This document shows positions 21,001-30,000 of a stretch of 64,000 nucleotides of DNA, one piece after another. The position numbers are program-made. The stretch covers positions 235,696-299,695 of the forward strand of contig CAZSPB010000001.1 in the NCBI GenBank assembly GCA_964608725.1. The letters are read 5' to 3'. Every line of letters begins with the position of its first letter. The first letter of the stretch is position 1. This DNA is from an uncultured archaeon (GTDB lineage Archaea; Aenigmatarchaeota; Aenigmatarchaeia; Aenigmatarchaeales; Aenigmatarchaeaceae).

Positions 21001-24000
21001 AAATCTTTTTTATAAAATTTTCAGTTCTTTTATATTACTGTTTCTTTTTAAAAGGAGCCTTATGATTTTTATTTTCGATCCACCTTTGCCTATTACTATG
21101 CCTCTGTCTTCAGGTTTTAAAGAAACTGTAGCTTTATCTCCATTTATTTCAATTTTTTGTGCTTGGGGAATAAGATTTTTTATGAATTTTTTACTATCTT
21201 CAGACCATTCAAAGACTTTTATTGGTTTTCCTAACATCTTTTCAGCAATTTTGATATTTTGGCCATTTTTTCCTATAGCTATAGCAATTTTTCCAGGATT
21301 AACTAGAAAATATATTGTATCAGAACAAATACAATCTCTTACTTCACTCCCAGTAATATTTTCAAAAGCTGTGATTACTCTTATAGTATCTGTATCAAAG
21401 TTTCTCATTTTTTCACTTTATTGCTAGTGCAGCTATTGAAAATGGCTTTCCACATGTTATTCCCAGCTGCTTTGCAGTACCTTCAAACTCTTTCACTTCT
21501 ATTCCTGAAAGTTTTGCATAATACTCTATATCTTTCCTTATTTTTTCAGGACAATTTTTTGCAATTATTACTTTTTTAACTCTTCCAAGCTTTAAATTTT
21601 TTATAGTTCTCTTACTACCTATAATTACATTATTAGTTTTTAATGCTTCTCTTAATTCGTCTAGCATAAAATCACTTTTGAGGTTTAAAAACTAATTCGC
21701 ACATACCAGTTCCTACTGGAACAACTTGATTTATTATCACATTTTCTATAATAGAGTTTAAGTGATCAACTTCTGCTTTTATAGCAGCTCTAGTTAAATG
21801 TTTTACAGTTTCTTCAAAGTTTGCTCTAGCTAAAACAGAACCTTTTGCACCTGCAACTCCATATCTTCCAATAGCTTTAATAACGCCATCTGCAGTCATA
21901 GCATCTGCTACAAGCATAACATGCCTAACATCAACATCAAGTCCTCCTTCTTGAAGGGTTTGCATCGTGTTATTGATAATAGCTTGTCTAGCTGCTTCAA
22001 CTCCAAGAACTTTAAGTATCTCATGAATGTTGTTTGTTGTAGTTCTTGTAGTGTCAACACCAGGAATTTCGAAAACTTTTCCTAAGTTGCTTCCTAAAGT
22101 TTCAATAACCCATTCTGAACCTCTCCTGAATATTCTAACTTCTGAAACACCCTTTACACCTTTTATACGAGTTTTCAAGATTTTCGTTTTTAGCTTTTGT
22201 AATTGTTTTATAGATAACTCTTCTTTTGGTGTTATGAGCAACCTTTCCTTTTTGAGTTTAATTTTAACATCTTTGAAGCTTTCTCCCAGCTTCTTAACTA
22301 CATTATTAATTCTTATTCTCTTTTCAGAAAGAGATTTCCTATCTAGAGGTATTTCAATTCTCATGTTAAGTAAGTCTATTGTTGGCTCATTAGAAACATC
22401 ACTCAATTTTGTTTCTTGTATTTCAGATGCAATTTTTTGGGCCTTTTCTTTAGTGTTGTAGCTTTTCTTCAAATATACTCTCATCATTGGTGTTTTTGGT
22501 ACTCTTCTGGCATCAAATATTTCTATTAATCTTGGTAAACCTAGCGTTACTCTTATTTCTGCAGCACCTGCAATATGGAAAGTTCTCATGGTCATTTGAG
22601 TGGCAGGTTCTGAAATACTTTGGGCAGCTACAATACCTATCGCTTCTCCAGGTTCATAACAACTTTTTTCATAAATCTCTACAACTTTTTTAATTGCCTT
22701 TCTTTTTTGTGAAGAAGTAAGCTTATATTTTTTGAAAGCTGCTTTTAAATCATTAATTACTTTTTTTGGTAATATTTTTTCAGCTTCTTTTAAATTCATA
22801 AACTCACCTTATCACAGATTGAACTATTGATTCCACATCTAGGAAGCCCCAATTTGATTTTGATGGGTCTATTTTATCTTCTCCAGGAACGAATTGAATT
22901 ATAACACCTCTATTATCTCTCACAGTAAAATCATACTCAATTTTTAAGTCTTGTAATGCATTCATTAATCTTCTTTCTAAATAACCACTATGTCTAGTTC
23001 TTAGTGATTTGTCCATTAAGGATTCTCTTCCTGAAACAGCATCAAAAAAGAATTCATAAGGATTTAAACCAGATTTAAACCCATTTTTTATAAAGCCGTG
23101 GGCTGCGGGAGAAAGATCTCCTATTGGAAATATTGGTAATGTTCTTCCTCTGTAACCGCGATGTATCCTTTCGCCAAGAATTCTAGCCTGGCCCACTGCA
23201 GCTGCAAGTTGTGTTAAATGAGCTAAAGATGCTCTAGCACCTGATTTTGCCATTATAGTTGCACAGTTATCTCCTATGTTTTCTCTTACTATTTTTTCCA
23301 TTTTTTCTGTAGCTTTTGATAATACTTCAAGAATATGAGCTTCTAAACTTTCTTTTAAGTCACAACCAGGAAGCAATTCAATTTTACCTTTTTTATAAAG
23401 TTCAATTAAATTGAATACTTCATTTTCAGCGTCATCGAGTATTTCATCTATTTTCTTCTTTATTTTATCGTCTAACTCAATGTCATCTAAGCCGATAGTA
23501 AATCCTGTTTTGTCTAAATACTTAATACCAAGAAGAGAAACTTTATCAATGAAGCTATGAGCAGCTTCAGTACCAAATTCTTTTTCTATTACATCTATTA
23601 ATCTTCCATGCTCTTTACTAATCGCTTTTGAGTCTATTATTCCACTTATCAATTCACCGTTTTTTATAATAACATACTCATCACCAGGATAACCTTCTTT
23701 TGCTTTGAATTCTATGTATAAACCTTTTGGAAGAAGGAAACTAAAAACTTCTTTCCCTGAGAATTTTTTCTTGTCTGGTAAAACAGGTAATACCCCAATA
23801 TCAGCTAACAACTTAAAGGTTTCTTCTCTTGTAAGCTTAGTATCTTTATGTGTTAGTTTAAAGCAACCTGAAATGTGGTCTTCTACACAACCTATAATAG
23901 GTCCACCGAATCTCGGAGATCTTATATGTTTTTGAACTTCCATCAAAAGTTCTGCTTCTGCTCTTGCTTCTTCAGTTTGAGGAACATGCAAGTTCATTTC

Positions 24001-27000: not shown

Positions 27001-30000
27001 TTTTGTGTAACCTATAGGAACACCATCAAGATAAACATCAATTCCTTCATCTTCAAGTTTTAAATAAGAAAGCAGTCTCTTTTTTTCTTCTTCAGTTATA
27101 CCTTTAGTTATTTCAGCAAAAAGTGCTAAGTGTTTTCTTAAACCTATAGTGGGACCTTCAGGTGTTTCAGAAGGACAGAATTTTTGCCAATGTGTTGGGT
27201 GTAGTTCTCTTGCTTCAAAATGCTCTTGAGTTGAAGTTAAAGGAGAAAGAACAAGTCTCATATGTGATAATGAATCTATATAATTTTTCCTTTCTAGTCT
27301 TTGTGAAACACCTGTTCTTCCACCAATCCATGCTCCGGTTGCCATAGCAGAAGTTAATTGGTTTGTCACAACATTTGCTTCAACTATAGTTTGAGCAGGA
27401 GGTAATTTTCCTCTTTTTGCCATTTTTTGGTAATTGTATTTTATTCTTGCTATTAGGCCCCACCTTCCAACAAGGATAGACCTAAAAAGCAATTCCAGTA
27501 AGTCGCCCGCCAATTTAATCCTTTTATTTCCATAATGGTCAATATCATCTTCTGGAATTATTCCTAAAGCTAACTCAATTATTTTTCTTGATGCTTTAAG
27601 CAAGTAATGAGCCTTTTTTAACCTATCTCTTGGTTCTTGACCCAAATGAGGCAAAAGATATTTATCTATTATTTGTTCAACTCTTTCTTTTCTATACTCT
27701 TTTTGTGGTATTTTGAGGTGTTTCCCAACAAACTCTAAAGCATCTCTTGTTGTTTGTACATCAGTCTCATATAAATTAACATAGAATTCATTCACAATTT
27801 TTTCATCACCCAAACCTTCAACTATATCTTTATCTTTTTCTAAACCAAGTAGTTTTAACAAAACTACTATAGGCAATCTTCTTATGTTAGCAAAAGAAAC
27901 GTAAATACAGCCATCATTTTTTCTTTCTATTAAATGCCTTTGAACAAAACCATTCCTTTCAGAATTTATCCTTATGAGTTCTGTGTAGTTTCCTACATTT
28001 TGCTTTTCTAAAATCATTCTATTTGGTGCAATCTCTTCAACAAGAATTAAAACTCTTTCAGTCCCATTAATTATGAAGTAACCTCCTGGGTCATCAGGAT
28101 CTTCACCAATTTCTTCTAACTCTTCTCTTGACATTTTACTTAACGGACATATCTTTGATTTTACCATAACTGGCAATTCTGCTAGCAAAACGTTAATAGG
28201 TTCTTGTTCAACTTTGTTTATTATTGGTGTGATTTCTACATAAACTGGAGCTGTGTAAGATATTTCTCTTATTCTAGCTTCCATAGGTAATATTTCTCTA
28301 ACTGCACCCTCAGCTTCCTTCACACAAGGCCTTCCTATTGTAATTTTTCCAAATTTTATCACAAGTTCTCCTATTTCTGGAACTTCTGGTTTTATTTCTC
28401 CTATTTCGTCTATTATTTTTTGGAGTCTATGATCAATAAAATCATTATAACTTTCTATTTGAAATCTTACGAAACCAATATCTTTTTTGAAAGCTTCTAA
28501 AATGTTTTTCATAACATCACTTTTTAACAACAACTCTATAATAAATTGATTCACCTGCAGTAACCGATTTCCTTATTATCTTTATTATATCTCCTTTCTT
28601 TGCTCCTATAGCTTTTACTACAGGGTCACTTATTAAAATCTTTGGTAACTGTTTAGGTGTTATATTCAACTTTTCTAGTAATTCTTTTTTCTCTTCTTCT
28701 GTAAGAATTATATGTTTCGGAACCAATTCATGCTTTAGAACATCATATTCTTTGCCCAATCCATCACCATATAAATTACTCTTTTTTTCGAGTAAAGCAT
28801 AAAAATTGCATTCTTATATTATCCTCTACTCTTTATAAACTTTACTGTTTGTCGAACTTACTATTTCTTTCTCCTCTTTTTTGGTCTTTTGCGTTTTGGT
28901 TTAGCTCTTTTCTTTCTCCTCTCTTCTTCTACACCAACTATTTTCAATTCAACTTCTTTTGGTTTTTTTGGGAAGTATATCTGCACAGCTATATCAATAA
29001 TGGCTACTGCAATGAATAACATTCCCAAAGAAATAATGGTAGGGCTGAAAGGATTTGTATAAATTATGATAATCCCTATTACAAACAAAACTAAAATTAA
29101 AATCCAATTTAATGCTTTACCCATACTCTATTTATGTAAAGGCCATCTTAAAAGCTTTTTGTATTAATCCACTTTCAATATTTTACTTACTATTACTATA
29201 GCTAAAACGGCTACTATTGAGACTGCAAAAGCAATGAAAAATTGTAAGACCCATCCTTCAAATGGTAGAGAGCGTTGAATAAAGTCTTTATATCTCTCTA
29301 AAAGTGAACTAATAGCATCTCTCCATAGGAGAGCTGCTACAAAAGCGAATGCTCCTGTAATGAATGTAGAAAGTTGTTTTCTAAATTCTTTTTGAAAACT
29401 GCTTATTTCTTTCTTCAATCTTTCATTAACTTCTTTTTTCATGTTATCACAGTAAATGGGCCCGAGGGGAATTTCGGTTTATTCATTCGAACCCCCGACC
29501 AACTGGTTTCTCTTCATTAATCTCTAACTTTAAGAGCCAGCCGCTCTACCTGACTGAGCTACGGGCCCAATTAAAATTAAAAAGTATGATTTATAAAACT
29601 ATTTCTTCCTTTTTCTAGTTAAAGTATCTTTCCATGCCCAATTATACTTCCTTAACTTTGGAGAAGGGTAACCGCATTTACTACATCTTTTCTTTCTTAT
29701 ATTATAAGAATGAGAACCACATCTCCTACATCTAATATGAGTTATCTTTCTATGCTTTCCAAAAGAAGGAGTTCCTTTTACCATAATCACACCATTATTG
29801 AGGAGAAATATACACTATAGTATCTCCTCTTATGAGAGTTGAGCCAAGCTTTATTTGTTTATCGTCTTTTCTTTCTTCTGCTTCTTCTAGCCAAATGTTC
29901 AAATGTAAGTCAAAAGCTTGTAGGACTCCAGTTATTTCCATTCCATTTTTCAATTTTATAATTACCCTTTTCCCTTTTGATTTATCTAAAACATCTAAAG

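What a model noticed while it worked through the whole genome (the two positions that open the first line are those of the whole stretch)
22804..28554. RNA polymerase Rpo2 fused to Rpo1N
The second-largest subunit (Rpo2/B) and the N-half of the largest subunit (Rpo1N/A') are one 1916-aa open reading frame, joined near residue 1100, while Rpo1C stays separate. The fusion is inherited by a subclade of Aenigmatarchaeaceae, an archaeal parallel to the beta-beta' fusion of Helicobacter and Wolbachia.
Evidence so far: Single ORF g00307 with Rpb2 and Rpb1 domains. A junction-spanning query matches without a stop in 10 relatives (all 5 of g4, all 4 of g7, G019), frames 1434-1941 aa; the other 29 genomes with a match have a stop or break at the junction. 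In 151 class genomes one more distant genome (G107) reads through.
(Added by a program. Inside this text positions count along the whole contig: contig position 235,696 is position 1 of the stretch shown here. "Call 12" and the like, gene names such as g00115 and contig names such as C1 are that model's own, and its searches are not shown. The text may have been shortened before it was handed on; [...] marks where a part breaks off. The agent that wrote the report below was given it as the finding of a first reader that could run no searches.)

Follow-up and report, generated by a model that had tools for sequence, protein, structure and literature searches.

The report
Archaeal RNA polymerase B–A′ subunit fusion
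In this small archaeon the genes for two large RNA polymerase subunits are joined into one reading frame, likely giving one working protein; the same join is present in about one in five related genomes and has likely arisen many separate times because the two gene ends already sit almost touching.

Summary
Confirmed and wider than reported. 22804–28554(−) is one stop-free frame carrying complete Rpo2 (B) and Rpo1N (A′); Rpo1C is separate, and the genome has no other copy. The likely start is ATG 28512 (1,902 aa). There is no linker: one residue replaces the old stop codon. All 11 fused family members form one clade, and a contig from another study bridges the junction. In the phylum, 63 of 344 matched genomes in 10 families read through, as B–A′ (~1,910 aa) or B′–A′ (~1,430 aa). 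They need at least 18 state changes, and a single clade is rejected. One Desulfurococcaceae lineage also has the join, and one unverified protein joins B, A′ and A″. Likely mechanism: unfused genes here are already packed end to end (118 of 197 at fusion-range spacing, against 0 of 121 other archaeal loci), so one base change fuses them at an engineered-and-crystallised join (PDB 3QQC), and A′ start signals then decay. No protein-level evidence. Ten literature searches found no description. The scan noted this fusion before in five other genomes.

The parts
22804..28512 (-). Probable coding sequence of fused Rpo2-Rpo1N (1,902 aa from ATG; the longest frame starts at GTG 28554, 1,916 aa)
25261..28512 (-). 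Rpo2 (B) part, unsplit, residues 15-1098 of the 1,916-aa frame; Pfam Rpb2_1 to Rpb2_7, C-terminal Cys4 zinc site
25252..25260 (-). Junction G1099-R1100-K1101: last Rpo2 residue, a sense codon at the old stop position, and the old start-Met position
   Evidence: predicted 2-residue turn between two strands
22804..25251 (-). Rpo1N (A') part, residues 1102-1916; Pfam Rpb1_1 to start of Rpb1_5
24001..24021 (-). Intact catalytic NADFDGD motif (residues 1512-1518)
25054..25095 (-). First A' clamp zinc motif; Asp1164 replaces the third Cys
21672..22799 (-). Rpo1C (A''), separate gene 4 nt after the fusion's stop
28517..28759 (-). Rpo5 (H), upstream gene of the cluster
21413..21667 (-). Ribosomal protein of the L7Ae/L30e family (L30e by position, recalled gene order)
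21010..21408 (-). NusA-like KH protein

Best explanation
The genome's only rpo2 and rpo1N genes are joined in one frame with no linker, likely translated as one chain that would fold into an otherwise normal RNA polymerase, and the join likely arose by a single base change that removed the rpo2 stop codon. Shown: one frame, intact catalytic motifs, no second copy, inheritance by 11 relatives, 63 fused genomes in the phylum. Inferred: the Rpo2 C-terminal strand and the Rpo1N N-terminal strand lie side by side in the clamp, so a 2-5 residue turn joins them at little cost. In this phylum both ends are trimmed to the core and the genes abut, so a stop-to-sense substitution or a 1-nt deletion gives a correctly spaced fusion. 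Afterwards the A' start codon and ribosome-binding signal decay, which makes reversal hard. The result is a mostly neutral ratchet that has fired many times. Any selective benefit is untested.
For: Single copies of B, A', A'' and H; all three stop codons in use. Unfused relatives end B at ...G-stop. G014 has stop then ATG directly in frame, and 4 of 9 unfused family genomes (G009, G015, G016, G017) are 1 nt longer, so one substitution or one deletion gives the fused layout; G003, G005 and G010 keep the old Met. A contig from another study (X2) spans 25195-25432 with 1 difference. Of 268 loci translated: 63 fused, 197 separate, 8 undecidable. Tree of 260 rows, junction columns dropped: 18 changes at least (shuffles mean 57, minimum 48); a single origin needs 52 or more losses. 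With outgroups the phylum ancestor is separate at equal costs, 18 vs 20 steps. AU tests on a 36-row subset reject one clade: all fused p=8e-5, f1+f21 p=1e-11, two f15 genera p=2e-58, f12 p=4e-4. Core-to-core gap is 15-27 nt in 63 of 63 fused; 27 nt or less in 118 of 197 unfused phylum loci (median 25) and in 0 of 121 other archaeal loci (median 50). ATG near the A' start: 15 of 63 fused vs 192 of 197 unfused; Shine-Dalgarno-like motif 14 of 63 vs 150 of 197. PDB 3QQC joins Pyrococcus B 1053-1115 to A' 3-318 at this point and its structure was essentially unaltered (PMC3094117 passages); its join is 2 residues longer than G000's, which equals the commonest natural spacing (34 of 63). AlphaFold places two strands with a 2-residue turn at the junction, local pLDDT 79.
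Against: No RNA or protein data. The model is poor overall (mean pLDDT 57, pTM 0.36), and strand pairing was read from secondary structure only. In a wider 14-codon window 30 of 63 fused loci still hold some ATG/GTG/TTG. The backbone of families f11-f16 is unresolved (support 0.46-0.75), and if gains cost three times as much as losses a fused ancestor ties (40 vs 40). The two f21 groups are only marginally separated (p=0.0475). Kin are not independent, so the spacing and motif counts overstate their significance. Ten metagenome loci were set aside from the 121 by eye as phylum-like; 9 then fell inside the phylum clade and 1 did not; 5 of the 10 had gaps of 27 nt or less.
Confidence: 0.82

Rival explanations
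1. The fusion is favoured by selection (fixed stoichiometry, co-translational clamp assembly, stability, or genome streamlining), not merely tolerated. This can hold alongside the mutational mechanism.
For: About 19 gains with at most one loss needed at equal costs. Whole clades keep it (f16 17 of 19, f1 clade 11 genomes). Spacing is confined to 5-9 residues.
Against: 20 of 197 unfused loci are already in frame at fusion-range spacing yet keep their stop. The fused side has the smaller estimated genome in only 8 of 12 sister comparisons, from rounded sizes. An irreversible ratchet predicts the same asymmetry.
Confidence: 0.25
2. One or a few ancient fusions followed by many fissions explain the patchy pattern.
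For: Unresolved backbone in f11-f16 with fused lineages near its base. Counts of change cannot by themselves tell gain from loss.
Against: Needs 52 or more losses for one origin. Fused pairs sit inside unfused genera g56 and g64 with support 0.97-1.0. Unfused loci keep start codons and SD motifs that each fission would have to re-create. Outgroups are unfused.
Confidence: 0.12
3. The gene is fused but the mature enzyme has separate chains, through proteolysis at the junction or an internal start.
For: The old ATG is kept in 3 of 11 family members and in 15 of 63 overall. Nothing at protein level was tested.
Against: G000 has no start codon at the old position; the nearest ATGs are at residues 1089 and 1114. 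Junction residues vary with no conserved cleavage motif, and no intein domain was found.
Confidence: 0.07
4. Assembly or base-calling artefact, or a recoded stop codon.
For: All genomes examined are unnamed or metagenome-derived. One apparent read-through (G132) was a run of N over the junction.
Against: Eleven genomes with different junction DNA form one clade. An independent-study contig bridges the junction. 107 of 161 proteins checked from public collections carry both parts. There is no stop to recode, and TAA, TGA and TAG all end long ORFs.
Confidence: 0.01
5. A fused operon spread sideways between lineages.
For: G305, filed in f38, has a polymerase that groups with f21 genus g88.
Against: Every other fused sequence groups with its own family or genus, and fused sequences are rejected as one clade. 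G305's contig is 5.4 kb and may be mis-binned.
Confidence: 0.03

Closest known systems
Bacterial beta-beta' (RpoB-RpoC) fusions, NCBIfam NF007172 and NF011417 (Helicobacteraceae and Wolbachia; organism names and papers recalled, not read)
   Same: Second-largest subunit C-terminus joined to largest subunit N-terminus, from adjacent operon genes, at the homologous clamp position.
   Different: Archaeal sequence; scores far below those models' cut-offs (408 vs 5372; 392 vs 4632). Only the N-half of the largest subunit is joined, A'' is separate. Recurs at least 18 times in one phylum, and also occurs with B split (B'-A').
Engineered Pyrococcus furiosus clamp fusion, PDB 3QQC (PMC3094117, passages read)
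   Same: Same join of B C-terminus to A' N-terminus; best sequence and fold match to the junction region; folded and bound Spt4/5.
   Different: Artificial, clamp fragment only, Gly/Ala/Ser linker, 2 residues longer than in G000; catalysis not tested.
Canonical archaeal Rpo2 / Rpo1N / Rpo1C with known B''-B' and A'-A'' split variants (PMC5484517, passages read)
   Same: Same domains, motifs and gene order H-B-A'-A''.
   Different: Known variation lies inside B or inside A. The boundary between B and A' is removed here. That paper calls split and fusion events rare and names a secondary A'-A'' fusion only in Pacearchaeota.

Membership tests
Archaeal Rpo2 (subunit B) | Full-length match to PRK08565 above cut-off; Rpb2 domains 1-7 | tested here: met
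   1417 vs 1402 bits, residues 12-1099
Archaeal Rpo1N (subunit A') | Match to PRK08566 / TIGR02390 above cut-off; NADFDGD motif | tested here: met
   1178 vs 819 and 1164 vs 1043 bits; motif at 1512
Archaeal Rpo1N (subunit A') | Clamp zinc motif C-x2-C-x6-C-x2-H (motif recalled; present in 57 of 63 fused and 191 of 197 unfused loci) | tested here: inconclusive
   Third Cys is Asp in G000 and 5 relatives, and in 3 unfused f15 genomes; zinc binding not tested
Bacterial beta-beta' fusion family (NF007172 / NF011417) | Score above the curated cut-off, bacterial-type sequence | tested here: not met
   408 vs 5372 and 392 vs 4632 bits
Bacterial beta-beta' fusion family (NF007172 / NF011417) | Whole largest subunit included in the chain | tested here: not met
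   A'' is a separate ORF
Natural second-largest / largest subunit fusions (as a kind) | One frame across the B C-terminus and A N-terminus, inherited in relatives | tested here: met
Natural second-largest / largest subunit fusions (as a kind) | Uncleaved fused chain in the active enzyme | not testable with these tools
   needs proteomics or purified enzyme

The most novel reading that the evidence does not exclude
In Aenigmatarchaeota and neighbours every chain boundary of the polymerase core is a switch that flips repeatedly (B''/B', B/A', A'/A''), the B/A' join has been fixed about 19 times because it benefits these small cells, and at least one lineage has reached a natural single-chain B-A'-A'' archaeal polymerase core (P0238), the full archaeal counterpart of beta-beta'.
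Probability: 0.3. Interest if true: 0.75.

Novelty: new variant of a known kind. Interest (0 to 1): 0.58.

Why it matters
[quoted passage not shown] At least 18 changes at one boundary in one phylum show they can be frequent where gene ends are tightly packed, so they are unsafe as markers there. It gives a countable natural case of how subunit boundaries in a core machine are gained and locked. Practically, databases label these chains B or A' only, so marker-gene pipelines may miss a subunit. The natural zero-linker joins are also ready designs for single-chain archaeal polymerases.

Tried and rejected
No RNA holder was listed, so expression is untested. Contigs X3 and X4 listed no piece across the junction; X1 spans the whole gene with no difference but may be the source sample. 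The HMMER search of 50%-identity representatives returned two fusion representatives of known type, one 141-aa singleton fragment with both ends (P0179, possibly a frameshift, not followed up) and otherwise A' N-terminal matches; the 24 hits I printed showed no further B-A' join. A motif-based first classification left many loci unscored and was replaced by HMMs. Eight of 268 loci were dropped as undecidable: G028, G080, G291 (contig ends), G132 (N run), G194 (break), G354, G356, G361 (A' not within the fetched stretch). The other 76 of 344 matched genomes were judged from the tool tables only (stop in the match, short open frame, or no B match for G360 and G370). The tool's open-frame length runs through stops (G014, G020), so it was not trusted alone. 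Genome-size association: 8 of 12 comparisons, no clear signal. DNA for P0238 was not found in a metagenome scan that covered 3 of 64 parts (0 of 74 scorable loci fused). P0311 is labelled Woesearchaeota but is 86% identical to an f16 fused sequence, so it was not counted as a new phylum. Literature searches listed no paper on a natural archaeal B-A' fusion; most subscription papers are not held, and a paper on the Helicobacter fusion was not available. PMC13473441 passages say only that fused proteins were split by pipeline. The supplement of PMC5484517 (S29 Fig) was not read and could bear on novelty.
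Full report
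Observation. The window holds one stop-free frame at 22804-28554 on the minus strand, 1,916 aa from a GTG, with no N in the window. Pfam finds all seven Rpb2 domains and Rpb1 domains 1-4 plus the start of domain 5. NCBIfam places archaeal subunit B at 12-1099 and subunit A' up to 1915, both above cut-off, and the next gene is A''. The catalytic NADFDGD motif is intact. The genome has one copy each of B, A', A'' and H, and uses all three stop codons. The likely start is the ATG at residue 15 (28512), 4 nt after the Rpo5 stop, where most full-length homologs begin, giving 1,902 aa.

Not an artefact. In the family, 20 of 21 genomes match and 11 read through. Their junction DNA differs, yet they form one clade with support 1.0. 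A contig from a different study covers 25195-25432 with one difference. Among 161 public proteins checked, 107 carry both the B end and the A' start.

The join. Unfused relatives mostly end B at Gly-stop and begin A' at Met-Ile. Fused ones read Gly-x-(Met/Leu/Lys/Ser)-Ile: one residue stands where the stop was, and three of the 11 keep the old Met. G014 has stop and ATG directly in frame, and four other unfused family genomes are one base longer. A single substitution or a single deletion therefore gives the fused layout. G014 lies outside the fused clade, so it shows a pre-fusion layout, not a reversion.

Structure. AlphaFold on residues 850-1373 is weak overall (mean pLDDT 57), but at the junction it gives two strands with a two-residue turn at pLDDT 79; the hairpin pairing is my inference. 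The best PDB match by fold and by sequence is 3QQC. This is an engineered Pyrococcus clamp that joins B 1053-1115 to A' 3-318; it folded, bound Spt4/5 and was essentially unaltered (PMC3094117, passages). Its join is two residues longer than G000's, the commonest natural spacing (34 of 63). The join is thus shown to be structurally tolerated in a clamp fragment. Activity of a whole fused enzyme is inferred.

Scale. Of 371 genomes of the phylum, 344 matched. I translated loci from 268 of them: 63 fused, 197 separate, 8 undecidable. The other 76 showed no read-through in the tool tables. Fused genomes fall in ten families: f1 11, f11 1, f12 10, f13 1, f15 16, f16 17, f18 1, f21 3, f29 2, f38 1. 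By open-frame length, 15 are whole-B fusions of about 1,910 aa (f1, f21, f38) and 48 are B'-A' fusions of about 1,430 aa. The latter start at the standard B''/B' split site.

History. On a 260-row tree without the junction columns the state changes at least 18 times (shuffles: mean 57, minimum 48); there are 19 all-fused clades, and one origin would need 52 or more losses. With 133 further rows including outgroups, the phylum ancestor is separate at equal costs (18 vs 20 steps) and ties only if gains cost three times as much as losses. AU tests on a 36-row subset reject one clade for all fused, f1+f21, two f15 genera and f12; f21 is marginal. The backbone of f11-f16 is unresolved, so the count of origins lies between about 6 and 19.

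Why here. The gap between the conserved cores is 15-27 nt in all 63 fused loci. It is already 27 nt or less in 118 of 197 unfused loci of the phylum (median 25) and in 0 of 121 other archaeal loci (median 50). Those 121 are 57 named Thermoproteota and Thermoplasmata loci plus 64 unnamed metagenome loci; 10 phylum-like metagenome loci were set aside by eye, of which 9 then fell inside the phylum clade. After fusion the A' initiation signals thin out: ATG near the old start in 15 of 63 against 192 of 197, and a Shine-Dalgarno-like motif in 14 of 63 against 150 of 197. A wider window still finds some start codon in 30 of 63. These counts are not independent across kin. I read this as easy mutational access plus a ratchet. 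Selection is not excluded, but 20 unfused loci sit in frame at the right spacing with the stop kept, and genome size shows no clear trend (8 of 12).

Outside the phylum. A search for long Rpo2 relatives found a 2,045-2,057-aa B-A' fusion in a cluster of 22 sequences mostly labelled Desulfurococcaceae, confirmed in DNA (1 of 58 scorable loci), with a longer join of 42 nt. It is rare there: none of 150 other genomes sampled from its order read through. The same search found P0238, 2,681 aa, with B, A', an intein and A'' in one chain. It is known from one contig, lies just outside the phylum clade, and its DNA was not seen. G228 has A' and A'' fused, with the B stop directly before the start codon in frame. 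These protein searches are word-based and capped, so they do not show absence elsewhere.

Comparison and novelty. It works like the bacterial beta-beta' fusions (literature recalled, not read) but is not a member of those families, and A'' stays free. Ten searches of the held library (listings and abstract starts) showed no description of a natural archaeal B-A' fusion. PMC5484517 (passages) treats such events as rare. The scan's own earlier notes report this fusion and its recurrence in five other genomes; my reading was recorded before I saw them and was tested here independently. Those note summaries did not mention the Desulfurococcaceae case, the single-chain protein or 3QQC. Verdict: real, a new variant of a known kind, interest 0.58.

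Noticed in passing
P0238 (protein only, one contig of 16.5 kb): 2,681-aa chain with B, A', an intein just before the catalytic motif, and A''; a candidate natural single-chain archaeal polymerase core, just outside the phylum clade.
   Followed up: partly
L277:5001-11135 (G371); P0240, P0242: Independent B-A' fusion in a lineage labelled Desulfurococcaceae, seen in several assemblies; 1 of 151 genomes in its order sample.
   Followed up: yes
L423:1721-8587 (G228): A' and A'' fused (1,188 aa); the B stop codon is directly followed in frame by the A start codon, one base from a whole single chain.
   Followed up: partly
window 25054-25095 (-): Third Cys of the first A' zinc motif is Asp in G000, g7 and G019 (6 fused genomes) and in 3 unfused f15 genomes.
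   Followed up: partly
window about 23640-23680 (-): G000's A' lacks a small four-Cys insert present in the 6 other whole-B fusion proteins of its clade that I printed, which accounts for 1,902 against about 1,911 aa.
   Followed up: no
L014:1322-1504 (G020): A roughly 57-60-aa ORF of unknown kind is inserted between rpo2 and rpo1N in a close unfused relative.
   Followed up: no
   Followed up: no
(families f27, f36, f38, f40): The B''/B' split also varies across the phylum and apparently within f38 (open frames of about 600 and about 1,100 aa).
   Followed up: no
L272, L273, L274 (family f40): No A' start within about 1.6 kb after the end of B, so the operon may be interrupted or rearranged.
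   Followed up: no
window 31633-32121 (-): Stand-alone LigD 3'-phosphoesterase domain gene in a DNA-repair-like gene run.
   Followed up: no
P0179: 141-aa singleton fragment with a B end joined to an A start, of non-phylum type; may be a frameshifted fragment.
   Followed up: no
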